The position numbers and the translations under genes were made by a program. A stretch of 64,000 nt of DNA from contig JAKPMO010000002.1 in NCBI GenBank assembly GCA_029548865.1, positions 224,001-288,000 on the forward strand. The letters run 5' to 3'. The first letter of the stretch is position 1; each line of letters starts with the position of its first letter. The DNA is from Caldisericota bacterium (GTDB taxonomy: Bacteria; Caldisericota; Caldisericia; JAAYUI01). Below the pieces are notes generated by a model. It did not search any database. It saw nothing but the letters and a program-made list of their open reading frames with translations, and was not told the origin of the DNA. This document shows positions 35,702-50,967 of the stretch, piece by piece.

Positions 35702-35784
35702 TTTTTCTCACCTTTCCAATTGTATTATGAGCCACGGTGGATTATAAACACAAAGGCACTTTATCAAAGGGTGGTATGGTAAAC

Positions 35785-36519
35785 ATGGACGAAATAAAAA
35801 ATGCCGTTGATTTGCTGTTAAAAGCTGGCAGGGTTTCGGCCCTTACGGGGGCTGGGATGTCTGCCGAGAGTGGAATACAGACTTTCCGTGACAAAGATGG
35901 CGTCTGGACAAAGATGGATCCGATGAAATGGGCAACCAGAGAGGGCTATCTTGAAAATCCGAAACTAGTGTGGGAATGGTATGAAGCAAGAAGAAACCAG
36001 GTGAAGAACTCAAAGCCGAATGATGGACATTGTGCAATGGCAGAATTTGAGAACATTTTCGGTCATTTTTCGGTTGCTACACAAAATATAGATGGATTTC
36101 ACAAGCTCTCTGGTTCAAAAAACGTGCATGAGCTTCATGGCAATATATTCAGGAACAAGTGCTTTGATGAAGACAAAATGCTTGAAGAACTTGATGAAAC
36201 AAGCATTCCACCAAGATGCCCATATTGTGGCGCTTTGGCCAGGCCTGATGTGGTGTGGTTTGGGGAGATACTACCGCAAGAAGTTTGGGAGGCTGCTTTT
36301 GATGATGCAAAAAACTCTGATTTCTACATGGTGGTTGGTACTTCGGGAACTGTCTATCCTGCCGCTGGCCTTGCCGGGATTGCAAAAAAGAATGGCGCAA
36401 AAGTGATAATTATAAATCCTGAAGACTCCGAGATTGATTTGCTGGCAGATGTTTTAATAAAGGGCAAGTCGGGAGAAGTTCTGCCAGAAATTCTCAGAGG
36501 GCTCCAGACCAGTAAATAG
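35785..36519 (+). CDS. cobB: NAD-dependent protein deacylase (sirtuin)
   Basis: LTGAGMSAESGIQTFR, WYEARR, TQNIDG, ELHGN, RPDVVWFGE, VGTS. Confidence 0.95.
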   Translation: MDEIKNAVDLLLKAGRVSALTGAGMSAESGIQTFRDKDGVWTKMDPMKWATREGYLENPKLVWEWYEARRNQVKNSKPNDGHCAMAEFENIFGHFSVATQNIDGFHKLSGSKNVHELHGNIFRNKCFDEDKMLEELDETSIPPRCPYCGALARPDVVWFGEILPQEVWEAAFDDAKNSDFYMVVGTSGTVYPAAGLAGIAKKNGAKVIIINPEDSEIDLLADVLIKGKSGEVLPEILRGLQTSK

Positions 36520-36642
36520 CCAGGATTACCCATAAAGGTTTCAAAGGGATTTTTCTGCTCTCTACCAACTTTTGGCAAAAGATTGACAAAGCCTTCTTTT
36601 GGAAATAACTTAATTACAATCTGATATTGCCAGGAGGACGGG

Positions 36643-37572
36643 ATGAAAAGGGTTATTTTTGCAGTCTTTTTGATATCGGTTATGGCCATTTTGTTTGTTG
36701 GCCCTGTTTTCTCGCAGGAAAACAAGAATTCACCACCACCAACAACTATTACAGGCGTTCCATCCACGCCAGACGAGATAATGGCCGCCCAGAAAAGAAA
36801 TTATGTCCAGTTTCCAATTTTGAATGGTAAATATGGCCAGATATGGCTGATTCCCAAGGGAGAGGCAAAAATAACCGCCAGGAACATAAAAGGGCTCATT
36901 GCAGGTGACGTCATCGAGGTTGACAATGATGGAACAAGTGCCTGTTCAATTGATTTTGACAACTTTACCTCGGTCTATCTCAAATCGGATAGTGCCATCG
37001 AGTTTGTCGACACTACACCAACAAAAATGAAAATAAAACTTTTGAAAGGTGACATGCTCTTTGCTTCAAAGAAGTCCTCAGGGATCGAGCTTGTCCAGGA
37101 CGGCTGGGCAACCCAGGGGCTTGAAGGAACGTTCACCTTTTCAGTGACCAGAGACAGCTCCGAGATGAGCGTTGTTGAAGGCACGACTGCATTCAAAATA
37201 GAAAAATCGGGGTCCGTTTACAAAATAGACGCAGGCAACACTGCAATAATAACAAAGGATGGCATTGGCGAGATTGACCCGGCTGGCATATCGCCGTTGC
37301 GTTTCTGGGATGACACCATATCAAACCTGAACCCGACACTGCCAAAATCAAAAGAAGCTGTTGAGCCATCGACCGCTTTTTCGCTTGGCGCAATTTTGCT
37401 GATTGTTGTTGCGGCAATCATTGTTGGTTTGCTTGTTTACGTTGTATACAGGACAATCAACAAGAGGCCAAAGGTTGAGATTGAGAAAGTTGATGAGCCG
37501 AAGCCGCGCACAGAAGATATTGTTGCATCCGAGATCGAGGAGATCACCACTGACGAGACGATAATAAAATAA
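36643..37572 (+). CDS. Exported FecR-like domain protein with C-terminal TM anchor
   Basis: Signal peptide; GDVIEV, LLKGDM, GTFTF, SVVEG pattern; C-terminal TM. Confidence 0.7.
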   Translation: MKRVIFAVFLISVMAILFVGPVFSQENKNSPPPTTITGVPSTPDEIMAAQKRNYVQFPILNGKYGQIWLIPKGEAKITARNIKGLIAGDVIEVDNDGTSACSIDFDNFTSVYLKSDSAIEFVDTTPTKMKIKLLKGDMLFASKKSSGIELVQDGWATQGLEGTFTFSVTRDSSEMSVVEGTTAFKIEKSGSVYKIDAGNTAIITKDGIGEIDPAGISPLRFWDDTISNLNPTLPKSKEAVEPSTAFSLGAILLIVVAAIIVGLLVYVVYRTINKRPKVEIEKVDEPKPRTEDIVASEIEEITTDETIIK

Positions 37573-37587
37573 GAGAGGAAATTACAT

Positions 37588-38520
37588 ATGGTGAGCTGCA
37601 ATTATTTCTATATGCCTATTTTGAAAACCCTGTCTGATGGCAAGGAATGGAACAAGAAGGATATATTTGAATCTGTAGCAAAAATATTGAATTTAAGTGA
37701 AGAGGAAAAAAATGAGAGAATACCATCCGGCCCACTAAAATACCAAAAAAGGATGGAATTATCTTTCTTTTATTTAGTAAAAGCTGGTCTTATCGAAAGA
37801 ACTAAACTTGCCAATCTCCTTATTACTGAGGAAGGTAGAAAATTATTGAAGGAAAACCCTCCAATTATTGATAACAATTTTTTACAAAAAAGATATGTTC
37901 AATATGCTGAGTGGTTAAAAAGTTATAGGCATGAATATCAAGGCCCAAAAGACAATTATCCTAGACAAACAGAGGGTATTGTTGATTGTGGGTCTATAAC
38001 CCCCGAAGAAGAGATAGATCAGGCCTTTAGAGATTTGAGGGAAAATCTTGTAGACGAGTTACTTGAAACAGTAAAGAGGGTCGATCCGTCATTTTTTGAA
38101 AAACTTGTTATCGATCTGCTCTTGAAGATGGGTTATGGTGGTTCGAGGGCCGAGGCTGGCAGGGTGGTTGGAAAAACTGGCGACGGTGGGATTGATGGTG
38201 TAATTGATGAAGACAAGCTTGGCTTGGACAAGATTTATATTCAGGCCAAGAGATGGGAAAATACCGTTGGAAGACCGATTGTTCAAGCTTTTGTGGGCAG
38301 TCTGGCTAGCAATCACTCAAAAAAAGGCATTTTTATCACTACATCCGATTTCACAAAAGATGCCAGGGAATACATAGAAAAAATTGACAGCCGGATTTCG
38401 CTTGTTGACGGCAGAAAGCTCGTTGAGTTGATGATTGATCACGGGCTTGGTGTCAGCACGAGCAACACATACGAGATCAAAAAAGTCGACAGGGACTATT
38501 TCCCTGAAGACCTATTCTAG
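37588..38520 (+). CDS. mrr: Mrr-family type IV (modification-dependent) restriction endonuclease
   Basis: N-terminal Mrr winged helix; FFEKLVIDLLLKMGYG, GDGGIDG, IQAKRW, FITTS. Confidence 0.95.
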   Translation: MVSCNYFYMPILKTLSDGKEWNKKDIFESVAKILNLSEEEKNERIPSGPLKYQKRMELSFFYLVKAGLIERTKLANLLITEEGRKLLKENPPIIDNNFLQKRYVQYAEWLKSYRHEYQGPKDNYPRQTEGIVDCGSITPEEEIDQAFRDLRENLVDELLETVKRVDPSFFEKLVIDLLLKMGYGGSRAEAGRVVGKTGDGGIDGVIDEDKLGLDKIYIQAKRWENTVGRPIVQAFVGSLASNHSKKGIFITTSDFTKDAREYIEKIDSRISLVDGRKLVELMIDHGLGVSTSNTYEIKKVDRDYFPEDLF

Positions 38521-39096
38521 TTCATCCTGGTCTTTTGGTACAAAATTGAACTTGTTGCCGGCCGCCTGGTAACCTTCCTCTATTAGGAAAAGGCAAGCCT
38601 GTGCGGCTTTTTTTATTGCCTCTCCTAGTCCTTCATCCTTCGTCCTTGAAAGGACAAAATCAACTACCTCATCTTTTGTCTCCGGCCTTCCGACGCCTAT
38701 TTTGATCCTGTAAAAATCCGATTTTCCAGTTTCTTGTATTATGGATGCAATTCCCTTGTGTCCGCCATTTGATCCGCTTTTCCTGATCCTGAGGGCCCCT
38801 GACGGGAGGTCTATGTCGTCATGGATGATTATCCAGTGGTCGGAAGGCACCTCGTTAGCATTTGCAAGACACCCGACTGGCCCACCAGACAGGTTCATGA
38901 AAGAAAGAGGTTTTGCAATCACAAATTTCATTTCATCAAATTCCAGCCTGGCAATTTTTGCCCCGCAGGACATCCTTGAAATCCTTGTTTTCAGCGATTT
39001 TGCGAGGGCATCCACAGCATCAAAACCCACATTGTGCCGTGTGTGTGCGTATTTGAGTCCGGGATTTCCAAGTCCCACTATGAGCCATTTTTCCAT
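38512..39096 (-). CDS. pth: Peptidyl-tRNA hydrolase
   Basis: LIVGLGNPG, TRHNVGF, KPLSFMNLSG, HDDIDLP, GGHKG. Confidence 0.96.
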   Translation of the reverse strand: MEKWLIVGLGNPGLKYAHTRHNVGFDAVDALAKSLKTRISRMSCGAKIARLEFDEMKFVIAKPLSFMNLSGGPVGCLANANEVPSDHWIIIHDDIDLPSGALRIRKSGSNGGHKGIASIIQETGKSDFYRIKIGVGRPETKDEVVDFVLSRTKDEGLGEAIKKAAQACLFLIEEGYQAAGNKFNFVPKDQDELE

Positions 39097-39167
39097 ACGG
39101 AAACATTATCTACAAAAAACTCCGGCAGTCACGATTAAAATATTTACACAAATTGCAATTTGCGACC

Positions 39168-39205
39168 AAATAAAAAACGGCCCTTTTGGGGGCCGTTTTT
39201 TATTT
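39168..39205 (-). terminator. Rho-independent terminator of the serine operon
   Basis: AAATAAAAAACGGCCC-loop-GGGCCGTTTTTTATTT. Confidence 0.88.
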
Positions 39206-39222
39206 GTCTGGTTAATATTTGG

Positions 39223-40563
39223 CTATTTTACAGTCTCTTTGTCTGGGAAGTACTGAATTACAAGCCCTGACTGGACCTTCGGGAAGTAGTCCGTCGATTT
39301 CTGCGGCATTGTCTCGAAGTGTTTTGTTACATCCTCAACCTGGGTTGTGAGTGTCGGATTCATGAGGAAGACGCACTGGTGAGTGCCCTTGGCCACAGGT
39401 TCGACCGCTTCCGGAACATACCTTTCATAGTCAACGTTTGTCTGGGCAGCAAGCTTTGCATCGTCAATCCCCAGCTGTTTTTCAAGTATCAGCTTGTGGA
39501 GGATTGTTACATCCAGCCTCTTCCAGTCATTGGATTTTTCAACCGGAATGGAATCGGCGATTGACAGGTCCTTGAGAGTCAGCATGTACATCTTTTTTGA
39601 ACCCTTCGGGAAGTATCCGAAGGCGTGCTTGTCCACGTTTTTGCCCATCATTTCAACCAGTTTCCTTGCGGCATCGACTGCTGATCCGGAAACTTCAACC
39701 TCTGCTACATCAAAATTGCCCTTGAGCTGTTCAAGCAGTTTTGCGCCATCAAAATTTGGGACATCACGGACCAGCCTGTGGGTTGGGAAAACGTAAAGGT
39801 TTGGATCGGCCATGTTGACATAGGCGATCATCCTGTAGTTCCAGCCTTCTTTGCCAGTGAAACCCGGATTCTTTTCCCTCATCTCGTTGCGATAATTGAG
39901 GGCGGTTTCGTACCTGTGGTGGCCATCACAGATGATGGTTATTTTTGGGTCCATCAGGTCCTGCACCTTTTTTATTGTTGCCGGGTCGCTAATTTTCCAG
40001 ATTTTGTGGTGGGTCTTGTATTCGTCCACAGCATCAAAGAGGGGCCCCGAGCCGGTTTTCCCGGAGAGCACCTTGTTGATTGCGTCCTCATTGTCTCTGT
40101 AGAACATCAGGACGAGGCCAGTATTTGTTTTTGTTGACCTCATGAGCATGAGTCTGTCCTGCTTGGGGCCAGAAAGTGTGTGCTCGTGCGGATAGACAAT
40201 CTTTTCCGAATACTCGTGGAGTTTGCCTAGTGCTATGAAGCTCATGCGGGTAACGGTCTTGCCAGTATCAGGATGGATATATTCCTGGTTGTAGACGTAG
40301 ATGCACGGCTCTTGGTCGCGCTCAAAAATGTTCTCGGCCATCCACAGCTTTGTGTACCATTCTGCCCTGACATACTTGTTGTAGTTCTCGTCGTCCCCCT
40401 GGAGGTCCTTTCCCAGCTCAACGCGGATGGCGTTGTAAGGCGAGGTCTTATAGTATTCCTCCTGCATTTTTGGGGTGATTTTGTCGTATGGCTGGGTGAT
40501 CAGGTCCTGTATGTTACCAGCCTGTTTGCTGTAGTGGACTCCTTTAAAGGGGAGTATTTCCAT
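39223..40563 (-). CDS. DUF1015 family protein
   Basis: PYD, PHEHT, ICDGHHRYETA, PTHR, MPQKSTDYFPK. Confidence 0.9.
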   Translation of the reverse strand: MEILPFKGVHYSKQAGNIQDLITQPYDKITPKMQEEYYKTSPYNAIRVELGKDLQGDDENYNKYVRAEWYTKLWMAENIFERDQEPCIYVYNQEYIHPDTGKTVTRMSFIALGKLHEYSEKIVYPHEHTLSGPKQDRLMLMRSTKTNTGLVLMFYRDNEDAINKVLSGKTGSGPLFDAVDEYKTHHKIWKISDPATIKKVQDLMDPKITIICDGHHRYETALNYRNEMREKNPGFTGKEGWNYRMIAYVNMADPNLYVFPTHRLVRDVPNFDGAKLLEQLKGNFDVAEVEVSGSAVDAARKLVEMMGKNVDKHAFGYFPKGSKKMYMLTLKDLSIADSIPVEKSNDWKRLDVTILHKLILEKQLGIDDAKLAAQTNVDYERYVPEAVEPVAKGTHQCVFLMNPTLTTQVEDVTKHFETMPQKSTDYFPKVQSGLVIQYFPDKETVK

Positions 40564-40569
40564 CGATTT

Positions 40570-41484
40570 CTATTTTCCTTCCTTGAAGAATTCGGCGATC
40601 TTTTCTGCCAGTTGAACGCCAGCCCTTGTTTGACCTTCTTCGGTGGCGGCTCCAATATGTGGAGTAAGGGCAACATTCGGCAGGGAAGCCAGCTTGTTTA
40701 CTCCTTCCGGTGGCTCCTTCTCGAAGACATCGATACCGGCCGCGAAGAGTTTTCCTTCTTTTAGCGCATTGTAGAGCGCCTCTTCGTTGACAGTACCGCC
40801 CCTTGCGCAATTTACGAGCACAAGGCCTTTCTTGCACTTGTCAAAGTCCTGCTTATCCAGAATGTTTTTTGTTTCAGGGGTAAGCGGAATATGGAGCGAG
40901 ATGAAATCTGCTTTTGCAAGCAATTCATCTTTGCTTACCATGTGTATGCCCTGCATGCCTGGATCGGAAACGTATGGATCAAAAGCAATAACTTCCATTC
41001 CAAATGCCATTGCCCTCTTAGCTGTTTCCCTGCCGATTCTTCCAACACCAATGAGTCCCAGTGTTTTTCCGTAGAGCTCCACGCCTTCCATGACCTTCTT
41101 TTCCCACTTGCCCTCTTTCATGGTGGCTGTTCCGTAGCCGATCCAGCGGGAAGCGGCAAGCATGTGGCCAATTGCCAGCTCTGCAACACTGATTGATGTT
41201 GCTGCCGGGGTATTTACGACCTTGATCCCCTTTTCTTTTGCAGCATTGGAGTCAACATTGTCCAGACCAACACCGGCCCTTCCGATGATCCTCAGTTTTG
41301 AACCGGCCTTTATTACGTCAGCAGTGACCTTTGTGGCCGACCTGACGATGATGGCATCATAGTCCCCGATTGAACTGACAAGCTCCTCGGGCGTCATTTT
41401 TTTGACAACGACCTCATGTCCTTCTTTTTGCAGAAGGTCCACTCCTGCTTTTGCTATTGGATCAGAAATCAATATTTTGGCCAT
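40570..41484 (-). CDS. serA: D-3-phosphoglycerate dehydrogenase-like 2-hydroxyacid dehydrogenase (short form)
   Basis: VRSATKVT, GRAGVGLDNVD, GVGRIG, NCARG, TPHIGA. Confidence 0.85.
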   Translation of the reverse strand: MAKILISDPIAKAGVDLLQKEGHEVVVKKMTPEELVSSIGDYDAIIVRSATKVTADVIKAGSKLRIIGRAGVGLDNVDSNAAKEKGIKVVNTPAATSISVAELAIGHMLAASRWIGYGTATMKEGKWEKKVMEGVELYGKTLGLIGVGRIGRETAKRAMAFGMEVIAFDPYVSDPGMQGIHMVSKDELLAKADFISLHIPLTPETKNILDKQDFDKCKKGLVLVNCARGGTVNEEALYNALKEGKLFAAGIDVFEKEPPEGVNKLASLPNVALTPHIGAATEEGQTRAGVQLAEKIAEFFKEGK

Positions 41485-41504
41485 AAAAACACCCCCTTTT
41501 GGAT

Positions 41505-42650
41505 TTATTCCTGTGCCATCTCCTTCATAAAGGCAGAGACGCCAGAACCGATTTCAAATTTGTGTCCAAGCTCTTTGAGTGTAAGCTCCAGGGCTGCGAG
41601 GCAGGCTAGCTCGGAGTACATGTCCATATATCCCATGTGACCAAGCCTGAAGATTTTGCCTGAGAAGTCGCCCTGACCACCGGCGATTGTTATGCCGTAC
41701 TTGTCCCTTATGACTGAGGTTACCTTTTTGCCGTCAACGCCATCCGGGATCTTGACTGTTGTTACTGCATCGCCCGGGCATTTTGCAAACAGCTCGAGGT
41801 TCATTGCTTTCATGGCAGTTCTGATGCCTTTGGCGAGCTTTGTTGATCTGGCCCAGACGTTTTCAAGCCCTTCGGCCTTCATCATCTCGAAAGCTTTGTC
41901 GGCTTGGTAAATGATCCCGATTGGTGGTGTCCACGGGGTTTCGTTGTCAACAAGTTTCTTCTGGAACAGCTTGAGGTCAAAATAGAACTTGTGCTGTTTG
42001 TTGTTTTCAACGAGCTTCCATGCTTTTTCGTTCATGCAGATGAAAGCCATTCCTGGTGGAAGCATCATGCCTTTCTGGGAACCACCGACTACCACATCAA
42101 CGTTCCACTCGTCCATCTTGAGTGGCACAACGCCGATGCCTGAAACGCCATCAACCACGAGTATTGCGTTGGTTTTGCTGACTATTTTTGCGAAACCTGC
42201 AGTGTCAGAGCATGCGCCGGTCGATGTTTCGGAGAGCTGGCAGAAAACAGCAACTGTATCCGGATTTTCTTTAATCACTGCTTCAAGCTCTGCTGGGGTT
42301 GCCATGTCGCCCCAGTCTTTTTTAATTTCGATAACATTTGCACCGTAGGCCTTATTGATCTTCACCCATCTTCCACCAAAGTTTCCGGCATTGATTACAA
42401 TGACTTTGTCTCCAGTGTTGACAAGGTTCTGGACGGCTGTTTCCATGGCGCCTGATCCCGATGAGGCCAGGAGATAGGAGTCATACTTGGTCCCAAGGAG
42501 CCATTTCATGTCGTCCGTCACCTTGCGGAACATCTTCTTGGCGACTGGATGCTTGTGGTGCGTTATTTCCCTTGCGCCCTCAAGCCTTACCTCTTCTGGA
42601 AGCGGGGTTGGACCCGGTGCGAGCAAAAATTTGTACAATGTTTTCATCAA
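41505..42650 (-). CDS. Class V PLP aminotransferase (serine-pyruvate / phosphoserine type)
   Basis: LAPGPTP, SGSGAME, SETSTG, VDGVS, GSQKGMMLPPG, FRLGHMG. Confidence 0.92.
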   Translation of the reverse strand: MMKTLYKFLLAPGPTPLPEEVRLEGAREITHHKHPVAKKMFRKVTDDMKWLLGTKYDSYLLASSGSGAMETAVQNLVNTGDKVIVINAGNFGGRWVKINKAYGANVIEIKKDWGDMATPAELEAVIKENPDTVAVFCQLSETSTGACSDTAGFAKIVSKTNAILVVDGVSGIGVVPLKMDEWNVDVVVGGSQKGMMLPPGMAFICMNEKAWKLVENNKQHKFYFDLKLFQKKLVDNETPWTPPIGIIYQADKAFEMMKAEGLENVWARSTKLAKGIRTAMKAMNLELFAKCPGDAVTTVKIPDGVDGKKVTSVIRDKYGITIAGGQGDFSGKIFRLGHMGYMDMYSELACLAALELTLKELGHKFEIGSGVSAFMKEMAQE

Positions 42651-42665
42651 AAAACTCCTTTCGGT

Positions 42666-42887
42666 TTATTGTGGCCGGGGCGGTGTTCCGCCGCGGTTAA
42701 CTGCATGGTTTTGCGTCAAAAGCTCTATGTTATTTTGTGTCCGGGTTTTTTTGATATGAGGATACTTACGAGGCGATTCTTTTCTGTTTGAAGCGCTGTT
42801 CCCATGCCAATCGCGGTTGCATTTTGGGTCTGGTAAGATGCCCCTGCCCAAAGGGAAAGCGCTTGAGAGCGATATTATTTCAATCAC
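42666..42887 (-). other. Putative leader uORF (73 codons) within the structured 5' leader of the serine operon
   Basis: RBS AAGGAG before GTG; Ser at codons 6, 8 and 9; overlaps a three-way junction at 42791-42864. Confidence 0.35.
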
Positions 42888-42908
42888 TTCACTCCTTCCG
42901 GGCCTCCT

Positions 42909-42936
42909 ATTGTAATAACCGATTTTTTGTTTTCAA
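42909..42936 (-). promoter_or_regulatory. Sigma70-type promoter of the serine operon leader
   Basis: TTGAAA-16 nt-TACAAT. Confidence 0.6.
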
Positions 42937-43084
42937 GCGTTGCCCACCAAAGTGGGCCAAACTGATTATAACAAGTATATTTTTATTGGAGAAACAATGA
43001 CCAAATCAGGCACCAACAACTATGCCGCTATCCAATAATAGCAGATTTCGCCAATATAAAATGGACAAAATTATTTGAGTGCTT

Positions 43085-43459
43085 CTATGGTTTTGTAGGT
43101 GGTTGCAGCCAGTAAAAGGCACCAATCGTGTTGAAATACCCGAACAGATTGGTAATAAAAACATATATTCCCACCCAGAATGCTATTTTCATCCAGAGAG
43201 GGAGCTTAAAGAAGGAAAGATTTTTTCTGGTTATTTCGAGATACACGCAGAGAACTATAACAACCATTCCGGCCAGTGTTACCCAAAAATTCCAGATTAT
43301 TGAACGTGGATTCATGACAACAAGCAGATTTCCAAATATTGCCATCGCGGATGCTGCTATTACTGCCAATATCGTGTATAAATCAAGTTTATTTGAAACT
43401 ATGGTTATTTTCTCGGTGCTACCAGGCCCTTCGATAACTCTTCCGTCGTTTTCTTCCAT
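43085..43459 (-). CDS. Hypothetical three-TM membrane protein
   Basis: RBS AAGGAG before ATG43459; three hydrophobic helices. Confidence 0.7.
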   Translation of the reverse strand: MEENDGRVIEGPGSTEKITIVSNKLDLYTILAVIAASAMAIFGNLLVVMNPRSIIWNFWVTLAGMVVIVLCVYLEITRKNLSFFKLPLWMKIAFWVGIYVFITNLFGYFNTIGAFYWLQPPTKP

Positions 43460-43546
43460 TTTTTCAGCTCCTTCGTTGAGAATGGTACATAAATACACAT
43501 GTTTTTGTCAATAGGTAAAAAATTATTAAGTAGAAGGTGAAACCAT

Positions 43547-43825
43547 GCTAGGTAGCTAGTGTATCAGTATATGTGCCTGGCAAGTCATGTTTGTGAGTAG
43601 AAAGAAAAGAAGAGAATTAAAAAAGAAGAAATGCTTGCTAACAGGCCGCTAATATTGAGGGACTAGTATCTAGCCACCAAAAAATTGAAAGGAGAAAGTA
43701 TATGGACCAGTTTATGTTTGCTGAAATGCTGATAGAGAACATCGTTAATAACTACGGTTGCGAAGACGGACACGATTGCAACCAGAATGAGCTCTAGTTT
43801 ACATGAACATGACTTGCCAAGGCAC
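43547..43825 (+). ncRNA. Candidate structured RNA / small-ORF mRNA with two long-range stems
   Basis: 43547-43560 pairs with 43662-43674; 43573-43595 pairs with 43802-43825; G-U pairs favour the plus strand. Confidence 0.45.
43702..43797 (+). CDS. Small ORF, 31 aa: MDQFMFAEMLIENIVNNYGCEDGHDCNQNEL
   Basis: Strong RBS AAAGGAG upstream of ATG; below the ORF-track size cutoff. Confidence 0.5.
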   Translation: MDQFMFAEMLIENIVNNYGCEDGHDCNQNEL

Positions 43826-43841
43826 TGGAAAACTTTATAAT
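43814..43841 (+). promoter_or_regulatory. Promoter of tRNA-Gly
   Basis: TTGCCA-16 nt-TATAAT, 11 nt before the tRNA. Confidence 0.65.
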
Positions 43842-43852
43842 CCCAACTGGTT

Positions 43853-43927
43853 GCGGGAATAGCTCAGTGGTAGAGCGTCGGCTTCCCAAGCCGGATGTCG
43901 CGGGTTCAAATCCCGTTTCCCGCTCCA
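43853..43927 (+). tRNA. tRNA-Gly(CCC)
   Basis: Cloverleaf with GCGGGAA/TTCCCGC acceptor stem, anticodon loop TT-CCC-AA, encoded CCA. Confidence 0.97.
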
Positions 43928-43956
43928 GTGCCACACCAACAAGGAAGAATGAGGCG

Positions 43957-43984
43957 AGGTCCGAAAGGGCCTTTTTTTATTTTT
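43957..43984 (+). terminator. Terminator after tRNA-Gly
   Basis: AGGTCC-GAAA-GGGCCT followed by a T-run. Confidence 0.8.
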
Positions 43985-44057
43985 GTCGTTACTTGTTTTT
44001 TTAGGCTAAACCCTGGTACTTGTCACAGGCCATCTTTTTGTTATAAATAACTTGCGC

Positions 44058-44132
44058 GGCGACGTAGCCAAGTGGTAAGGCGAAGGTCTGCAAAACCTTT
44101 ATCCAGGGGTTCGATTCCCCTCGTCGCCTCCA
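44058..44132 (+). tRNA. tRNA-Cys(GCA)
   Basis: GGCGACG/CGTCGCC acceptor stem, anticodon GCA, U73 discriminator, CCA; promoter TTGTCA-16-TATAAA at 44020-44047. Confidence 0.97.
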
Positions 44133-44144
44133 GTCAGAAAAAAA

Positions 44145-45032
44145 TTACCCAAGCCTTTCAACATCAACCCCGTCTTTTTGGGCTTTTACATTTTCTTTGC
44201 TAGATAAAACCGTATACATGGCCACATCAACAATAATAATTCCAAGGATCCCAGCCTGTTGGCCTAGTGTTGCAATCATGGGAATATTTCTTGTTATTCT
44301 TGACAGTAACATGGCGCCAGAAACAATCGTTGCCATCACGAAAATAATAAGCCAGAAATTGCCCCTTGTCAGATGCATTGCATATTTAAATGAATCAATC
44401 AGCGATTCCGAAGATTCGCATCGGATGTAGGGAAGATAGGTCAATCTTATAAAAAGAACTGATAGTGCAATCACAGATGCCGAGACGGCAAAGGACCAAC
44501 CCACATAGGATGGAGAATCATGGATGATTGTTGGTGTTGCCTCGAGAATTGTCATTATGAGGCCTATCAAACCTGCTATGGACAATACTATCAGATTTAT
44601 TGAAAGCCCGCCGATATATCTTGCAATTGCTCTAAATTGTCTAAAAGCTGATGAGAGTTGCGCTCTTCCTCTTCGTGCAACTTCTAGCACAAAAAAGGCT
44701 GCAATGCCAGCAAGAACAGACAGGAGGAGTACATAAATTATAAATTCAGCCAGAGCGCCCAATCCCTTTATTGCGACTACGCTCTCCCCGATCCTTGATA
44801 TTTCTGAGAGTCCTTTTTGTGTTATTTTTTCTATAATTTGTGACCACTCCTGGCTTGGTGCCCCCTGCATTGACCAGCCATTGCCTGCAATAAGTGATGA
44901 AATCCTGGGCAAGAGTTGGTTTATCAAATAGGCGCATGCGGTCATGGAGAAGAGCAGGACGGTCAACTTTGTTAGCGACGTGCGTACTATTTGGTCTATT
45001 TTTCCGAAAATTTTTCCTATTTTTTCAAGCAT
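44145..45032 (-). CDS. Multi-pass membrane protein (DUF975/GDPD membrane-anchor-like), paralog 1
   Basis: About 6 TM; RLTYLPY..IDSFKYAMHLTRGNFW motif. Confidence 0.75.
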   Translation of the reverse strand: MLEKIGKIFGKIDQIVRTSLTKLTVLLFSMTACAYLINQLLPRISSLIAGNGWSMQGAPSQEWSQIIEKITQKGLSEISRIGESVVAIKGLGALAEFIIYVLLLSVLAGIAAFFVLEVARRGRAQLSSAFRQFRAIARYIGGLSINLIVLSIAGLIGLIMTILEATPTIIHDSPSYVGWSFAVSASVIALSVLFIRLTYLPYIRCESSESLIDSFKYAMHLTRGNFWLIIFVMATIVSGAMLLSRITRNIPMIATLGQQAGILGIIIVDVAMYTVLSSKENVKAQKDGVDVERLG

Positions 45033-45828
45033 TCTCCATCTTCCTGTTTATTGCTTCGGTATAAATGGGAAGCAAAAGCGTTAACGTTACGACAGTTTCC
45101 AGTGCTATAAAAAATTCAGTCAGCCCAATAAGCCTGCCAGTGAGACCGGATATGGCGAAAAAGGCAATGGAAACCAAAAAAGACAAGCCTGCTATCACCC
45201 AGAAAAACGGTGCCGATATTTCGTATGACGAGACGAGTGTTTCCATAACCGGTTTTTTTGTCAGCGCGAACCCGTATGGTGCAAGCTGGAGCCTGATGAT
45301 GAAAAATACCATTACGAGAGCTGATATTGCAACGAAAAAAATTGCAGCAGGAGAAACAAATATTCCAATAAGTATACCTATCATGAGAATGAAAAACATG
45401 AATACAAATTCCAAGAGAAACATTGTAATCATCCTTGGCAAGAGTGCGAAACCTTTTGAAAAGAAAATCGACAGCCTTTCTTTAAGTGCCCCGCCATTTG
45501 TGGCCATATTTATGAATCCACCCATAAAGAAAGAAGAAAGGAGTATTGTTCCTACAAAATATATCGCAATTGAAAAGCCGAGGATTCTGAGCTCCTGAGC
45601 GGATAGTGATCGGGCCAAAGTAGAACCTGATTCCATACTCTTTAAACCTGTCGTGATGATTGATGATATTGAATCCCCCGGTGGTACAATCTGATCAGTT
45701 ATGGCTATTATTGGTATACTCAGGATTATCAGCAATATTGTGTAAACAATTGCTGCTATGGCAAAATCGGCCAGGTGTTCTTTTATGGTTTTTGCGAAGG
45801 TTACGAATGCGTTTTCCGATGTGGTCAT
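45025..45828 (-). CDS. Multi-pass membrane protein, same family, paralog 2
   Basis: RLQLAPY..METLVSSYEISAPFFW; ATG45828 follows TTGACT-16-TATACT. Confidence 0.75.
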   Translation of the reverse strand: MTTSENAFVTFAKTIKEHLADFAIAAIVYTILLIILSIPIIAITDQIVPPGDSISSIITTGLKSMESGSTLARSLSAQELRILGFSIAIYFVGTILLSSFFMGGFINMATNGGALKERLSIFFSKGFALLPRMITMFLLEFVFMFFILMIGILIGIFVSPAAIFFVAISALVMVFFIIRLQLAPYGFALTKKPVMETLVSSYEISAPFFWVIAGLSFLVSIAFFAISGLTGRLIGLTEFFIALETVVTLTLLLPIYTEAINRKMENA

Positions 45829-45905
45829 GAAAGCAAGTATAGTAAAGACATACACACAGTCAACGCTTGACGCGGAGTCTTTTTATACAATAATTTAGAA
45901 AGCAC

Positions 45906-45988
45906 GCCGGAGTGGCGAAATGGTAGACGCACGGGACTTAAAATCCTGCGGTGGTGACACTGTGCCGGTTCAAGTCCGGCCTCCGGCA
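45906..45988 (+). tRNA. tRNA-Leu(TAA), CCA not encoded
   Basis: GCCGGAG/CTCCGGC acceptor stem, anticodon TAA, long variable arm, A73. Confidence 0.96.
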
Positions 45989-46016
45989 GTTTTTTATTTC
46001 ATTGGTGGATAAAGAC

Positions 46017-46721
46017 ATGAAATCAAAACCATCTTTAGTTGTGTTGCATGGGCTTGGAGCGAGCTCCGAGTGGATGGGGATGTATAAAAAATCCTTTTCC
46101 GATAACTACAACGTAATTATCCCAGATATGCCCTATTCGCCTGATTCCGGCCCGCATTGCGGCAGGAGTATTACAGGTTATGTGGACTATGTGTACGAAT
46201 TATTAAAAGACACTATCAGAGTAGAAGGGTCTATCCTAATTGGAGAATCTCTCGGTGGTGCTGTTGCGATGATGCTTTGTCAAAAAATATCCTTTAAAAA
46301 ACTGGTTCTCATTGCACCAAGCCTTGGAATTGAAAAGGGTTTTATATCAACATATTTGAGGATGTTGCTTGTTCCCGTTGACATTCTTGCAGAGCCTGTA
46401 GCAGAAAAGATTGCCAAATCTGATCCGGAGTTGGGGGTACTTTCCAAGAAGATCATGGTTTCAACACCCAAATACAAAATGTTAAATCCGCTTGTTGCCA
46501 TGAAAAGATTTAGCGCTTTTGATTTGGGATCAGACTGTCTCCCAGAATTACTTGTTATCGGAGGAAAGTACGACAAGGTTGTCCCAGAAGATAAACTCAG
46601 GTTGTTTGCAAGCAAACATGGCGCCAATTTGTACATAAATAATGAATCAGGCCACCATGTTGCTGTGAACAGGTGGCCTGATGTCGAGGCTAGGATAAAA
46701 GAATTTATTCCATATCTTTAG
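46017..46721 (+). CDS. Alpha/beta hydrolase
   Basis: VLHGLG, GESLGG nucleophile elbow, GKYDKVVP, SGH. Confidence 0.9.
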   Translation: MKSKPSLVVLHGLGASSEWMGMYKKSFSDNYNVIIPDMPYSPDSGPHCGRSITGYVDYVYELLKDTIRVEGSILIGESLGGAVAMMLCQKISFKKLVLIAPSLGIEKGFISTYLRMLLVPVDILAEPVAEKIAKSDPELGVLSKKIMVSTPKYKMLNPLVAMKRFSAFDLGSDCLPELLVIGGKYDKVVPEDKLRLFASKHGANLYINNESGHHVAVNRWPDVEARIKEFIPYL

Positions 46722-47586
46722 TTTCGTAATCGTAGTCATGTTGCTTGATGTACACTTCAAGATACCTGAGGTCCCTGTCAAAGAATTGTGGTGAAATGAT
46801 TGGCAGATTGCGCTCTTCTTCCCATTCCTGGAGTCCTCTTATCATTATGAATTCCTCAAATCCAAGAGACATCAGGAAAAAGTATGGCCAGAGGCTCATG
46901 GAAGGGGTCACGGTAAAGTTTGTAAAATAGACAATCAGCACTGGGAAAATAGAAATGAACAGTATAAGGAGCCTTATTCCAAAGATTGCCCAGAACCTTC
47001 TGGATGTTGCCACCCATGAGCGCTTCAATGCCCCGAAAATGCCTTCTCCCGAGATGATCAACACCGGAGCGTATGAAAATTTGGTCAAAACCATGTATGC
47101 CAGTATCAGCATGACGAGGTATATCCAATTGATGGCAATTTGTGGAACAAAGATCGCTTCCATAAGGATTTGCAATCCGTACATTGCGCCAAGGAAAAGT
47201 GAGAAAAGAAGGACAAGAAAACTTGTGTAAGAAAGCATCCTTTTTGTATAGAATACTATTCCATTGATGAATGTTCTCTGTGCAATGTGCTTGGGGTCGA
47301 CCGTTCCTATGAGAAACCTGTATGCGCCAGCAAGAGCTGGTGCCGCTATGAACATCCAGAAGACCAGAAACAGCGCTACTGTAATGATGTTTGGTACACT
47401 CGGCCAGTAGATAAAAGAAAGGATGCTTTTGGTAAGGCTTGGAGGGTTTTTGAAAGAGAGGGCCATTATTATTTCAGACAGGAAGAGCGAGAAATAGATT
47501 GAGACTACGAATGCAGCTCCGACACCAAGAAGCCCTGCCACATGCCTTAGCATTTTCTGCCATGTTCTGGTCCAAAAATTGTTCAT
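46705..47586 (-). CDS. Multi-pass membrane protein, same family, paralog 3
   Basis: KFSYAPVLI..FGALKRSWVATSRRFW; RBS AAGGAG before ATG47586. Confidence 0.78.
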   Translation of the reverse strand: MNNFWTRTWQKMLRHVAGLLGVGAAFVVSIYFSLFLSEIIMALSFKNPPSLTKSILSFIYWPSVPNIITVALFLVFWMFIAAPALAGAYRFLIGTVDPKHIAQRTFINGIVFYTKRMLSYTSFLVLLFSLFLGAMYGLQILMEAIFVPQIAINWIYLVMLILAYMVLTKFSYAPVLIISGEGIFGALKRSWVATSRRFWAIFGIRLLILFISIFPVLIVYFTNFTVTPSMSLWPYFFLMSLGFEEFIMIRGLQEWEEERNLPIISPQFFDRDLRYLEVYIKQHDYDYETKDME

Positions 47587-47599
47587 GATGCTCCTTTCA

Positions 47600-48469
47600 T
47601 TATGAGACGGCACTTTCTGTTTCTTGCCCCCCCGAAACCATCCTGAACGCGGAAGCTGTTGCAACAATAGAGAACGTGAAGGCCGACCATGTCACTAAAC
47701 TCAAAAAAACGAAAAATATTTTATCAAGGCCAAGTTGCAGTGGTAAGAATGAAATCAATACACCAATCAAGCTGCAAAAGGAGCCGAGTACCAATTGTAC
47801 AGCGAAAAGTTCAAAGTACCATGGCCAGATTGACCTTGTTGATGCCAGGAGCGACTCCATAAAAGACTGGCCATTAAAATAATAAAAAGGTGCAAAAAGC
47901 AGTGGTGTTATAACTATACAAACTACAGTAAAGGCGACCATTTCAAACAAAAAAAATGTCCATGGCGACCAACTCTCTGCTACCCATGGAAGAGCAATTG
48001 AAACAAACGCTGCCAAACCGTGAATTGCCAGAACAATTGGGAAAATCTGTGCCTGATAACCTACCATTCTGGCGCCTTTTTTGATTATCCCACCTTCAAA
48101 TTTCTGGCTTGAATTACCGTGTGTGAATCCACCAAGGATTAAGTTTAAGATTCCACCCTGAAGGAAACCTGTAGCAAGAACATTTATTACCACACCCAGG
48201 CCTATTGTCAGCCATTTTGTCATAGAATCCGGGATAACAAAAATCAATTTTGCAAGATAGCCTGAGGTTTCAAGAAATGTTGGTTTTGAAAATATTTCAT
48301 GTGAAATTACAGGGAGATCATTATTGCCCGGGAATATGACGAAAAGTATGGTACACATGAGAGCAAGGATAATAAATGGAACCAGCCTGTACATTGTTCC
48401 AAAGCCAGCCAGGGCTATATAATTCGCCTTTATTGCCAGAAAAGTGTTTTTCCAGAATTTCCTTTTCAC
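47600..48469 (-). CDS. Multi-pass membrane protein, same family, paralog 4
   Basis: PLLFAPFY..MESLLASTRSIWPWYF; start is GTG48469 or ATG48478. Confidence 0.72.
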   Translation of the reverse strand: MKRKFWKNTFLAIKANYIALAGFGTMYRLVPFIILALMCTILFVIFPGNNDLPVISHEIFSKPTFLETSGYLAKLIFVIPDSMTKWLTIGLGVVINVLATGFLQGGILNLILGGFTHGNSSQKFEGGIIKKGARMVGYQAQIFPIVLAIHGLAAFVSIALPWVAESWSPWTFFLFEMVAFTVVCIVITPLLFAPFYYFNGQSFMESLLASTRSIWPWYFELFAVQLVLGSFCSLIGVLISFLPLQLGLDKIFFVFLSLVTWSAFTFSIVATASAFRMVSGGQETESAVS

Positions 48470-48499
48470 TGCCACCATTATATCATTGCCATTCCCAAA

Positions 48500-50053
48500 T
48501 TAAAATGTATCCGGAACAAGGATGGATCTCTTCATTGAGGGGTGTGGTTTGAGTCCAAGGAGGTAGAGAATCAGCCCTGTAACATCTGACAGACTCCCGC
48601 CTTCACCAAACTCCCATGGTTTCCTGCCCTCACTCGGAATAAAGATGCAGGGCACAAGATTTGTCGAGTGGGCAGTCTCCTTGTTTCCATTCTCGTCAAG
48701 TAACTGCTCTGCATTGCCGTGGTCTGATATGATTACCACATCATAACTATGCTCATGCGCCGCATTGACTATCTTTCCGGTTGATTCATCGACCTGTTTT
48801 ATGGTTTTGATTGTTGCGTCAATGTTGCCAGTGTGACCTACCATGTCAGGGTTTGCCAGATTGCAGACAATAAAGCTGTGCTTCTCGGTTTTGATGTCTT
48901 CCACAAGTTTTTCTTCAACCTGCGGGCATGACATTTCCGGCTGTAAATCGTAAGTGGGGACCTTTGGCGATGGCACAAGGACCCTGTCTTCGCCCTTGTA
49001 AGTCTCCTCCCTACCTCCGTTGAGAAAATATGTAACATGGGCGTATTTTTCAGTTTCTGCGATGCGAAGCTGGGAGAGTCCTGCATCGGAAACAATTTTG
49101 CCAAGGGTGGTTTCGATGTCCTGTTTCAAAAGCTCTTCTGTAAAAATTATTGGAAGAGTAAACGTTTCATCATACATTGCGAAACATGTGTAGCTTATCT
49201 TTGGTAATTTGTCCCTTTCAAATCCTGTAAAATCCTTTTCGGTAAGAGCTTTTGTGAGCTCCCTTGCCCTGTCAGGCCTGTAATTGAAGTGTATGAATGA
49301 GTCGCCGTCTTCAATCAGTGCCAGTGGTTTGTCACCATCCATTATGATCGTAGGTGTTACAAATTCATCTGTCTCGCCCAGCAGATAGGCCTGGTCAACG
49401 GCTTCAATTGCTGATCTGGCATGTCTCCCTTTTCCAGCTGTCAGGCAATCGTAGGCTATTTTTACCCTGTCCCAGCGGTTGTCCCTGTCCATGCTGAAGT
49501 ATCTTCCCTGAACGGTTGCTATTTTTCCACAGCCGATTTCCTTTAGTTTGCCCTCAATTTCGGCGATATATTTTTTGGCGGATTGTGGTGGTGTGTCCCT
49601 TCCATCAAGAAAGGCATGCACAAATACGTTTTCAACCCCGCATGATTTTGCTGTTTTGACTATTTCGTAGAGGTGCTCCAGAACCGAATGGACACCACCA
49701 TCAGAGCATAACCCAGCCAGATGGAGTTTGCCTTTTTTGCCATCCTCTATTGCTTTCAGCAATGTCGGATTTTTTTGGAACATTCCATCTTCAATGGATT
49801 TGTTGATTAGCGTCAGTTTCTGGTAAACGATCCTTCCTGCGCCAAGATTGAGGTGCCCGACTTCCGAATTCCCCATTTGTCCCTTTGGGAGTCCAACGGC
49901 CAGTCCTGATGCCTCAAGGAGTGTGTGCGGATATTTTCTCTGGAGCTCGTCAATGTTGGGTGTTCCGGCCAGAGTAATGGCATTTCCTGGGCCAGGTGGT
50001 GCCACCCCGAAACCATCCAGTATAAGAAGTAAAACTTTGTTGCCTGTTTTCAC
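48500..50053 (-). CDS. gpmI: 2,3-bisphosphoglycerate-independent phosphoglycerate mutase
   Basis: LILDGFG, MGNSEVGH, DGRDTPP, AETEKYAHVT, NPDMVGHTG, DHGNAE. Confidence 0.97.
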   Translation of the reverse strand: MKTGNKVLLLILDGFGVAPPGPGNAITLAGTPNIDELQRKYPHTLLEASGLAVGLPKGQMGNSEVGHLNLGAGRIVYQKLTLINKSIEDGMFQKNPTLLKAIEDGKKGKLHLAGLCSDGGVHSVLEHLYEIVKTAKSCGVENVFVHAFLDGRDTPPQSAKKYIAEIEGKLKEIGCGKIATVQGRYFSMDRDNRWDRVKIAYDCLTAGKGRHARSAIEAVDQAYLLGETDEFVTPTIIMDGDKPLALIEDGDSFIHFNYRPDRARELTKALTEKDFTGFERDKLPKISYTCFAMYDETFTLPIIFTEELLKQDIETTLGKIVSDAGLSQLRIAETEKYAHVTYFLNGGREETYKGEDRVLVPSPKVPTYDLQPEMSCPQVEEKLVEDIKTEKHSFIVCNLANPDMVGHTGNIDATIKTIKQVDESTGKIVNAAHEHSYDVVIISDHGNAEQLLDENGNKETAHSTNLVPCIFIPSEGRKPWEFGEGGSLSDVTGLILYLLGLKPHPSMKRSILVPDTF

Positions 50054-50163
50054 GCAATCAAGTTTACTTCAACACCAAAACGCTTCAAGTACCACGATTA
50101 TTAGCGTCCGATTTTGCCAAAACATTGACAAAAGCACATCCATACTTACAATCTTCTAGCAAT

Positions 50164-50967
50164 ATGGGAAGATCTATCGTTGTTACTTCAGGAAAAGGAG
50201 GCGTTGGAAAAACAACGCTAACCGCAAACCTTGGGTATGGGCTGTCGCTTGAAGGGAAAAAAGTCGTCCTGGTTGATACGGACATAGGTCTTAGAAATCT
50301 TGATGTCATACTGGGTCTTGAAAACAGGGTTGTCTATGATGTTGTAAATGTCGCAGAGGGAACCTGTGAACTTCAGCAGGCCCTTGTCAAAGACAAAAGG
50401 CTTGGCTCCAGCCTGTTTTTGCTGCCTGCCGCCCAGACCAGAAGAAAAGAAGATATATCAAATGACCAGCTGAAGCAGATTGTAACAGCGCTCAAAGGTG
50501 CGTTTGACTATGTAATTCTGGATTGTCCTGCAGGCATCGAGCATGGTTTCAACAATGCGGTCAATTCTGCGGACGAGGCGGTTGTTGTTGTAACACCCGA
50601 AGTCTCATCCGTAAGGGACGCAGACAGGGTCATAGGCCTTTTGGAATCAGCAGGAGTGAATGACATCTCACTTGTCGTAAACAGGATCAAACCAGAAATG
50701 GTCTCCTCTGGAGAGATGATGAGTGTCGAGGACGTGCTTGACATACTCGCTGTCAGACTTTTGGGTGTCATCCCGGAGGACAGACAGGTAATTGTCTCAA
50801 CAAACAAGGGAGAGCCAATAATTCTTAACGAAAAATCACTGGCCACTTCGGCCATAAAAGCCATCGTTGACAGGCTTGAAGGCAGGGAGGTCCCAATCCC
50901 AACTTTTGGCAAGAGGGGTTTCTGGGCAAGACTCTCTGATGCAATAACCGGCAGGAGGAAACAATGA
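50164..50967 (+). CDS. minD: Septum site-determining ATPase MinD
   Basis: TSGKGGVGKTT, DIGLRNLD, DCPAGIE, SVRDADR, C-terminal amphipathic helix. Confidence 0.97.
   Translation: MGRSIVVTSGKGGVGKTTLTANLGYGLSLEGKKVVLVDTDIGLRNLDVILGLENRVVYDVVNVAEGTCELQQALVKDKRLGSSLFLLPAAQTRRKEDISNDQLKQIVTALKGAFDYVILDCPAGIEHGFNNAVNSADEAVVVVTPEVSSVRDADRVIGLLESAGVNDISLVVNRIKPEMVSSGEMMSVEDVLDILAVRLLGVIPEDRQVIVSTNKGEPIILNEKSLATSAIKAIVDRLEGREVPIPTFGKRGFWARLSDAITGRRKQ

What the first reader, a model, noticed from the sequence alone, without database searches (positions are those of the whole stretch)
43545..43841. Unannotated structured RNA with two crossing long-range stems enclosing a 31-aa ORF
Seen: stem A, GCTAGGTA-G-CTAGT (43547-60) with ACTAGTATCTAGC (43662-74), 13 bp. 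Stem B, GTGCC-TGGCAAGTCATGTTTGTG (43573-95) with CATGAACATGACTTGCCA-A-GGCAC (43802-25), 23 bp with a 14-bp perfect core. G-U pairs in both point to a plus-strand RNA. The stems cross, so they are alternative folds or a pseudoknot. Between them lie a purine-rich unpaired tract, a strong RBS and MDQFMFAEMLIENIVNNYGCEDGHDCNQNEL, which has an internal hairpin (43756-83). A 4-codon uORF (MLGS, 43545) overlaps stem A, and the 3' arm of B covers the tRNA-Gly -35 box. Established: metastable versus 5'-3' long-distance folds control type I toxin mRNAs such as hok and aapA. This peptide is acidic with C-x5-C/His, not a TM toxin. Inference: a new switchable small-protein or dual-function RNA system, possibly metal or redox related.
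Basis: partly seen in the sequence, partly recalled or inferred. Interest (0 to 1): 0.72.

Follow-up and report, generated by a model that had tools for sequence, protein, structure and literature searches.

The report
Phosphate-starvation small protein beside tRNA-Gly
A short reading frame for a 31-amino-acid acidic peptide, kept in four related sludge bacteria, sits behind the same DNA repeat that marks their phosphate-uptake genes, so it is likely a new small protein made in phosphate starvation rather than an RNA folding switch.

Summary
The stems, ORF and ribosome site are in the sequence as stated, but the A/B folding switch is not supported. Stem A, whose arms coincide with promoter DNA, is lost in one of four congeneric genomes and never forms in full-length folds; the uORF is in 2 of 4. 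Stem B is the genome's strongest 60-500-nt duplex and is conserved, without covariation. The strict repeat has five hits in this genome: phoP, pstS, a Na/Pi cotransporter, this ORF and one unrelated site. A matrix trained on other genera's pstS promoters ranks this site first. Best reading: a likely PhoP-activated promoter (start ~43676) drives a new, genus-restricted 31-aa soluble acidic protein, read through into tRNA-Gly(CCC). A second upstream promoter likely makes a longer RNA clamped by stem B, possibly cut by RNase III at 43584, where three of six RNA assemblies begin. Not 6S, tmRNA, RNase P RNA, any Rfam family or a type I toxin. Translation, PhoP binding and peptide function are untested.

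The parts
43085..43456 (-). Divergent neighbour: 123-aa membrane protein gene, no Pfam family over cut-off
43482..43511 (-). sigma70-type promoter candidate of the divergent gene (TTGACA-18-TACCAT)
43505..43532 (+). Upstream promoter candidate 1, housekeeping type TTGTCA-16-TAAG(TA/TG/CT); would start ~43539 (inferred)
   Evidence: in register in 4 of 4 genomes; its -35 overlaps the divergent promoter, which alone could explain part of the conservation
43538..43565 (+). Upstream promoter candidate 2, ECF-like TGAAAC-16-TGTATC; would start ~43572, at the first base of stem B (inferred)
   Evidence: boxes 8/8 and 14/14 identical in G002 while the spacer is 2/13; resembles B. subtilis sigmaW TGAAAC/CGTA (PMC5758882 passages); 5 ECF-like sigma genes present, but no such motif near them and no spacing enrichment
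43545..43562 (+).
   Evidence: 7 bp, one double change in G001, 4 of 7 pairs left in G002; uORF in 2 of 4
43573..43595 (+). Stem B 5' arm; predicted RNase III cut between 43583 and 43584
   Evidence: 21-23 of 23 identical amid divergent flanks; RNA contigs start at 43584 in 3 runs and 43588 in 1; RNase III gene present
43596..43632 (+). Purine/A-rich tract with indels; likely upstream (UP-like) promoter DNA, and an unpaired loop in the long RNA
   Evidence: 16-30 of 37 identical; unpaired in folds
43637..43654 (+). Pho-box-type direct repeat GCTAACA-N4-GCTAAYA, 11-bp period
   Evidence: units 13-14 of 14 identical
   Evidence: same 9-nt spacing in 5 pstS promoters of the two other genera
43689..43694 (+). 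Shine-Dalgarno AAGGAG, 7 nt before ATG
   Evidence: 43689-704 identical 16/16 in all four genomes
43702..43797 (+). 31-codon ORF (P0001): pI 4.05, charge about -7, predicted helix 3-17, invariant C20, H24, C26
43756..43783 (+). Hairpin inside the ORF, 7 invariant pairs
43802..43825 (+). Stem B 3' arm, overlapping the tRNA promoter -35
   Evidence: 24/24 identical in all four
43814..43841 (+). tRNA-Gly promoter TTGCCA-16-TATAAT
43853..43927 (+). tRNA-Gly(CCC); no terminator found between the ORF and it
   Evidence: RNA contigs run from the element into it
43956..43973 (+). Intrinsic terminator candidate after tRNA-Gly

Best explanation
This is a conserved 31-codon reading frame that likely encodes a small soluble acidic protein and is likely switched on in phosphate starvation by the cell's PhoP/PhoB regulator, which is predicted to bind the direct repeat 48-65 nt upstream of the start codon. 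SHOWN: repeat, -10 box, ribosome site, ORF and stem B are conserved in four genomes; the same repeat sits before phoP, pstS and a Na/Pi cotransporter; RNA-library contigs cover the region and run into tRNA-Gly. INFERRED mechanism: (1) In low phosphate PhoR phosphorylates PhoP; PhoP~P binds 43637-54 in place of a -35 box and starts a short mRNA at ~43676 with a 26-nt leader. It lacks the 5' arm, so stem B cannot form, and RNase P frees it from tRNA-Gly at 43853. (2) An upstream promoter (ECF-like, start ~43572, or housekeeping, start ~43539) gives a longer basal or stress RNA in which stem B clamps the two ends around the ORF. RNase III likely cuts this 23-bp stem in its middle (43583/84 and 43815/16), setting the RNA's stability. 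The switch is therefore between promoters, not between folds A and B. (3) The peptide (amphipathic helix plus acidic Cys/His tail) most likely binds a protein of the phosphate response, such as PhoR, PhoU, PhoP or the Pst transporter, and tunes it, by analogy only (about 25%; metal buffering about 15%).
For: Repeat: one exact GCTAAYA-N4-GCTAAYA in the genome, and one near match, which lies before pstS. That locus is phoP-phoR-pstSCAB-phoU. pstS promoters of the family share CT(A/C)A(C/T)A repeats at an 11-bp period with a TAnnnT 9 nt later. This fits the Pho box definition (two 11-nt units, PMC4415409 passages; B. subtilis TT(A/T/C)ACA at 11-bp period, PMC11870197 passages). A matrix trained only on 5 promoters of two other genera ranks this site 1st in G000 (19.2 bits; pstS 2nd, phoP 5th), with 19.2-20.6 bits in G001-G003. 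Strict tandem hits: G000 5 (phoP, pstS, Na/Pi cotransporter, ours, one unrelated), G001 4 of 4 at ours plus those three phosphate genes. The control pattern's rate gives p about 3e-4 for a given 100-nt window, before counting the -10 box. Full box+N9+(-10) pattern: 14 hits in 11 family genomes, 4 ours and 7 of the other 10 at pstS or phoP. ORF: start, stop, length and SD invariant, three conservative residue swaps, no indels while the leader has indels. RNA: 6 of 6 laid RNA runs have a contig over the ORF, while 44137-45102 has no cover in 4 of 4 runs. In X18 the contig spans only 43663-43847 at depth 134, against 4.2 for a contig just downstream (weak hint of a short induced RNA). Stem B; 22-bp need of RNase III (PMC1540722 passages).
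Against: No binding, start-site or translation data. At genome scale the matrix score alone is not beyond chance: 5 of 10 shuffled genomes have a top hit of 19.2 or more, and the reversed control pattern gives as many hits as the real one (10, 15, 4, 5 against 5, 4, 8, 5). The site was found after looking at the alignment. The regulator scores below the PhoB cut-off (244 against 296 bits) and PhoR below its cut-offs, so their identity rests on best hit plus gene order. Only two repeat units here, against four at pstS. The X18 contig starts 13 nt before the predicted start, one base after a position that varies between species, so it may be a graph break; contigs cannot show ends, strand or level. 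Four genomes only; divergence to G002 is patchy (69-99% across genes), so recent exchange could explain the near-invariant ORF and 3' arm. Stem B has no covariation and 2 broken pairs. The upstream promoter is not settled.
Confidence: 0.62

Rival explanations
1. The RNA is the main product: a stable ~250-nt end-clamped non-coding or dual-function RNA, with the ORF secondary or untranslated.
For: Stem B is the strongest long-range duplex of the genome. Synonymous sites of the ORF changed little (2 of 26 against 38-50% in the flanking genes of G002). Local hairpins P1 and P3 (43644-78) show 3 double changes (16 of 500 shuffles).
Against: Perfect invariant SD and ATG, conserved stop and frame. 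The high identity continues through the tRNA promoter and on to 44180, as an exchanged tract would. P3 pairing probability is 0-0.06 in 3 of 4 genomes. The housekeeping RNAs it could stand in for are elsewhere or absent.
Confidence: 0.12
2. The repeat is bound by another OmpR-family regulator or is chance, so the small protein is not phosphate controlled.
For: Shuffled genomes reach the same top score in 5 of 10 trials; only two units; one of five strict hits has no phosphate link.
Against: The other strict hits are phosphate genes in G000 and G001, and spacing to a -10 box equals that of the family's pstS promoters.
Confidence: 0.1
3. Stem B is a DNA-level inverted repeat (paired operator, inversion site or remnant of a miniature mobile element), not an RNA helix.
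For: No covariation; two G002 changes break pairs; the 3' arm is constrained anyway as tRNA promoter.
Against: Invariant G-U pairs favour the plus-strand RNA (-38.9 against -34.4). Single copy, and the 11-nt core occurs exactly only here. No target duplication, same orientation in 4 of 4 genomes, no strand-changing joint in 2 DNA runs, no recombinase among the neighbouring ORFs examined.
Confidence: 0.07
4. One reading: a metastable stem A forms during transcription and is replaced by stem B, switching translation of the peptide, as in hok or aapA.
For: If the RNA starts at ~43539, nascent RNA folds stem A with probability 0.96 (G000) and 0.70 (G003) before the 3' arm appears. G001 keeps 12 of 13 pairs with one double change.
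Against: Probability 0.00 in G001 and G002; 7 of 13 pairs broken in G002; covariation no better than shuffles (205 of 500); ribosome-site access is the same in both folds; uORF in 2 of 4.
Confidence: 0.06
5. Type I toxin-antitoxin locus with an undetected antisense RNA.
For: Small ORF inside a 5'-3' paired mRNA.
Against: Peptide not hydrophobic (best 19-residue window 0.24, charge -7). SD not sequestered. No antisense promoter shared by the four genomes and no minus-strand terminator in the element. Single copy.
Confidence: 0.03

Closest known systems
Pho boxes and Pho-regulon promoters (E. coli PhoB; B. subtilis PhoP)
   Same: Two direct-repeat units at an 11-bp period upstream of a -10 box with no good -35; same repeat before pstS, phoP and a phosphate transporter; unit CTAA(C/T)A is one base from B. 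subtilis TT(A/T/C)ACA (PMC4415409, PMC11870197 passages).
   Different: Lineage-specific unit; 9 nt to the -10 box; two units only; binding untested; target is an unknown peptide gene read into a tRNA.
E. coli YoaI (34 aa, PhoB-induced, activates EnvZ; PMC11429745 passages)
   Same: Unannotated-size protein under Pho control; acidic residues could contact a kinase.
   Different: YoaI is a membrane protein; this peptide is predicted soluble and strongly acidic; no family or search hit links them (no direct alignment was run).
Small DUF1127 proteins that bind PhoR (PMC12501420 abstract)
   Same: Proteins under 50 aa tied to phosphate control; model for the proposed action.
   Different: No DUF1127 or any Pfam match; binding to PhoR not tested here.
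Type I toxin mRNAs hok and aapA1 (PMC8594479 passages; PMC5416894 and PMC6733600 seen in listing only)
   Same: Small ORF in an mRNA with a 5'-3' long-distance helix.
   Different: No hydrophobic toxin, no SD sequestration, no antisense gene, no conserved metastable fold.
RNase III processing stems
   Same: About 22-23 bp helix formed by distant arms, with an RNA end at its middle.
   Different: Here it brackets a 31-codon ORF; the end is known only from assembly contigs; proximal and distal box rules were not tested.

Membership tests
Pho regulon promoter | Tandem 7+4-nt direct repeats at 11-bp period | tested here: met
   43637-54, conserved in 4 of 4
Pho regulon promoter | Same motif as at the organism's pstS and other phosphate genes | tested here: met
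   pstS, phoP, Na/Pi cotransporter; rank 1 with a matrix from other genera, though 5 of 10 shuffles reach the score
Pho regulon promoter | -10 box at fixed spacing downstream | tested here: met
   TAnnnT 9 nt after the last unit, as in 5 pstS promoters of two other genera
Pho regulon promoter | PhoR-PhoP/PhoB pair in the genome | tested here: met
   Best hits PhoB and PnpS/PhoR, both under the cut-off, directly upstream of pstSCAB-phoU
Pho regulon promoter | PhoP~P binding and induction in low phosphate | not testable with these tools
   Only a weak hint: one RNA run with a short deep contig
Small protein gene | Conserved SD, start, stop and frame | tested here: met
Small protein gene | Coding-type selection (synonymous excess) | tested here: inconclusive
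   3 synonymous and 3 conservative changes in all; too few, patchy divergence
Small protein gene | Translation shown | not testable with these tools
   No Ribo-seq or MS data
Type I toxin-antitoxin | Small hydrophobic toxin | tested here: not met
   GRAVY -0.5, best 19-residue window 0.24, pI 4.05
Type I toxin-antitoxin | SD sequestered by an anti-SD | tested here: not met
   SD mostly unpaired in the folds examined
Type I toxin-antitoxin | Antisense RNA gene | tested here: inconclusive
   No shared minus-strand promoter, no terminator; no stranded reads available
Type I toxin-antitoxin | 5'-3' long-distance pairing | tested here: met
   Stem B, predicted
6S RNA | Rfam RF00013 match or stand-in for a missing 6S | tested here: not met
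   No match; the genome's own 6S-like RNA is at the locus syntenic with relatives' 6S
tmRNA / RNase P RNA / SRP RNA | Model match or stand-in for a missing gene | tested here: not met
   tmRNA and RNase P RNA lie elsewhere; SRP RNA not found in 0 of 11 family genomes and Ffh not found in G000
Invertible element / MITE | Both orientations, multiple copies or target duplication | tested here: not met
RNase III substrate | About 22 bp helix with an RNA end 11 bp from the helix end | tested here: inconclusive
   Geometry fits 43584; contig ends are a weak hint; 3' cut not seen
ECF sigma promoter | AAC-type -35 and CGT-type -10, shared with a regulon | tested here: inconclusive
   TGAAAC met, -10 is TGTA; no enrichment or autoregulatory copy

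The most novel reading that the evidence does not exclude
A two-promoter small-protein module in which phosphate status picks the RNA form. A long stress RNA is clamped end to end and processed by RNase III, and a PhoP-driven short RNA escapes the clamp. The 31-aa acidic Cys/His peptide is a new soluble feedback regulator of PhoR/PhoU signalling, or a metal-phosphate link, in a lineage whose strict Pho regulon appears to be only four promoters.
Probability: 0.2. Interest if true: 0.62.

Novelty: new member of a known kind. Interest (0 to 1): 0.38.

Why it matters
It gives a Pho box consensus and a minimal Pho regulon (phoPR, pstSCAB-phoU, a Na/Pi cotransporter) for an unstudied Caldisericia lineage of sludge bacteria, and adds one unknown member with one of the strongest boxes. 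A cell with so few Pho targets that keeps a 31-aa protein among them probably uses it in phosphate control, which makes it a directly testable candidate regulator beside YoaI and DUF1127 proteins. It is confined to one genus and its function is unproven, so the reach is modest.

Tried and rejected
6S RNA: tempting because RF00013 hit 7 of 7 family genomes outside the genus and 0 of 4 inside; rejected when a 6S-like RNA was found at the syntenic locus of G000. SRP RNA stand-in: rejected. tRNA-like or two-piece tmRNA from the CCACCA at 43674-79: no T-arm seen; a normal tmRNA exists. 'Stem C', the 3' arm folding on codons 3-8 in the short RNA: predicted (ribosome-site opening 8.5-9.1 against 3.8-5.5 kcal/mol) but no stronger than chance (p 0.41 shuffled, 0.75 synonymous recoding), so not used. 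Remote homolog in G006 (32-aa ORF before tRNA-Gly, similar upstream motif): peptide p 0.13, DNA 5-6 of 150 shuffles, no Pho box, no stem; left open. Homolog searches found nothing outside the genus: full-length DNA in 4 of 41 and 4 of 11 genomes; peptide strongly in 4 of 93 (the profile search added only its own G006 input); 1.84 billion representatives gave one congeneric copy and one repeat-protein false hit; the metagenome pattern gave 3 loci, 2 congeneric and 1 unrelated long ORF, and the viral pattern 1 unrelated locus; the arm pattern gave only G001-G003; no hit in plasmids, phages, Pfam, NCBIfam or PADLOC; Atlas hits all under 0.9. Two protein search tools need longer queries, so they could not be used for the peptide. 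An ECF regulon could not be shown. No RNA contig covers 43465-43583 in six runs; as a hole this proves nothing. No complex prediction was run, since co-regulation alone does not justify a binding claim. Literature: 'Caldisericia' with 'small RNA' gave one unrelated paper; two searches showed no report of this locus; the library lacks most subscription journals and no supplements were read.

Full report
Setting. The element lies between a divergent membrane-protein gene and tRNA-Gly(CCC). Related records are titled Caldisericia, and the runs that hold it are mostly sludge and biofilm metagenomes. It is single-copy and found full-length only in the four genomes of its genus: 4 of 41 and 4 of 11 searched by DNA, 4 of 93 by peptide. 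Rfam finds only tRNAs.

The observation. A 14-bp perfect repeat at this distance is common (6 in the genome, 0-6 per shuffle). The whole of stem B, however, is the best of 252 long-range duplexes (-38.9 kcal/mol), matched in 1 of 6 shuffled genomes. Its 5' arm is an island of conservation (21-23 of 23) between a 2-of-13 spacer and a 16-of-37 purine tract in G002. It has no covariation and two broken outer pairs in G002. Stem A fails as a conserved structure. G002 breaks 7 of 13 pairs, and 205 of 500 shuffles reach its covariation score. Its probability is 0.000 in all full-length folds; in nascent RNA it is 0.96 and 0.70 in two genomes and 0.00 in the other two, without effect on the ribosome site. 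Both its arms are local palindromes, which is why they can cross-pair. The uORF exists in 2 of 4 genomes.

What was missed. The alignment shows a conserved direct repeat, GCTAACA-N4-GCTAAYA, at 43637-54. Its only near match in the genome lies between a histidine kinase and a pstS gene, in a phoP-phoR-pstSCAB-phoU locus; the Pst genes and phoU pass their cut-offs, the regulator pair are best hits under cut-off. Across the family, pstS promoters carry CT(A/C)A(C/T)A units at an 11-bp period, and in five promoters of the two other genera a TAnnnT follows 9 nt after the last unit. Our site has TAGTAT (G002 TATTGT) at exactly that place. This matches the published Pho box layout (PMC4415409 passages; PMC11870197 passages). 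A matrix trained on the other genera ranks the site first in G000, ahead of pstS (2nd) and phoP (5th); 5 of 10 shuffled genomes reach that score somewhere, so position and company carry the argument, not score. The strict tandem has 5 hits in G000: phoP, pstS, a Na/Pi cotransporter, ours and one site with no phosphate link. In G001 all 4 hits are ours and those three genes. G002 has 8 hits (the same four, and 4 not examined); G003 has 5 (ours, phoP, the unrelated site, and 2 not examined that equal the cotransporter's 17-mer). The reversed control gives 10, 15, 4 and 5 hits, or about 3e-4 for a given 100-nt window.

RNA evidence. All six RNA runs laid (the six that hold the stretch) have a contig over the ORF, and a neighbouring kilobase is bare in 4 of 4. 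Contigs begin at 43584 in three runs, at 43588, 43611 and 43663 in the others; five run on into tRNA-Gly; two DNA runs pass through without joints inside the element. Several of the runs may be one campaign. Since four contigs begin well upstream of the Pho box, a second promoter is likely. Candidates are an ECF-like TGAAAC-16-TGTATC that would start at stem B's first base and a housekeeping TTGTCA-16-TAAG; neither is proven. Position 43584 is 11 bp into the 23-bp stem, where RNase III would cut (PMC1540722 passages; gene present). The X18 contig (43663-43847, depth 134 against 4.2 nearby) fits a short induced RNA, but it starts 13 nt early and may be a graph break. These are weak hints: contigs do not show ends, strand or level.

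The peptide. SD, start, stop and length are invariant, with three conservative swaps. It is acidic (pI 4.05), not transmembrane, with a predicted helix 3-17 at modest confidence (pLDDT 68) and invariant C20, H24 and C26. It has no family or outside homolog. Its very low synonymous change could reflect RNA constraint or recent exchange, since G002 divergence is patchy. Function is inferred only by analogy with YoaI (PMC11429745 passages) and DUF1127 proteins (PMC12501420 abstract): binding to a phosphate-response protein is the leading guess.

Mechanism and verdict. Low phosphate likely activates PhoP, which starts a short mRNA at ~43676 that cannot form stem B. An upstream promoter likely gives a longer RNA clamped by stem B and cut by RNase III. 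Both read into tRNA-Gly and would be released by RNase P. It shares a 5'-3' helix with type I toxin mRNAs (PMC8594479 passages) but fails their defining features. It is best filed as a new small-protein member of a Pho regulon with an unusual clamped long transcript.

Noticed in passing
G000:C18 about 13170-13355, minus strand: A 6S-like RNA at the locus syntenic with relatives' 6S genes, with a TTGATA-16-TATAAT promoter; missed by Rfam in all four genomes of the genus.
   Followed up: partly
G000 and family f1 genomes: No SRP RNA found in 11 of 11 family genomes and no Ffh M-domain in G000 (93% complete): possible loss of the SRP pathway in this family.
   Followed up: partly
L136 (G000:C5:79250, 81815) and L169 (G000:C23:123024): Lineage Pho box CT(A/C/T)A(C/T)A-N5-CT(A/C/T)A(C/T)A before phoP, pstS and a Na/Pi cotransporter; defines a small Pho regulon.
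   Followed up: yes
L014:1238-1336 (G006): Another unannotated 32-aa ORF with a strong ribosome site, own hairpin and AAAC-16-TGTATAAGTA motif directly upstream of tRNA-Gly(CCC); absent at that place in 6 other family genomes; homology not significant.
   Followed up: partly
L164:1501-1760 (G009): Pho-box-plus--10 pattern before an unannotated 60-aa ORF; possibly another small Pho-regulon protein.
   Followed up: no
L122 (G002:C38) against window 35700-51000: Identity to G002 swings from 99% to 68% between neighbouring genes, suggesting patchy recombination between species or a mixed assembly.
   Followed up: no
window 44145-48478: Four minus-strand membrane-protein genes of 276-320 aa around tRNA-Leu and an alpha/beta hydrolase; only one weak Pfam hint (GPDPase membrane domain, under cut-off).
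   Followed up: no
L015 (G009:C1, upstream of tRNA-Gly): Repeated copies of the tRNA-Gly 5' end and upstream stretch around an N gap: tandem repeat or assembly artefact.
   Followed up: no
G000 tRNA set: ARAGORN finds no tRNA-Thr(GGT) and only two CAT tRNAs, probably assembly gaps.
   Followed up: no
G000:C19 about 252366, minus strand (window about 28370): Long perfect hairpin between a TGTATAAG motif and a ribosome site in a leader.
   Followed up: no
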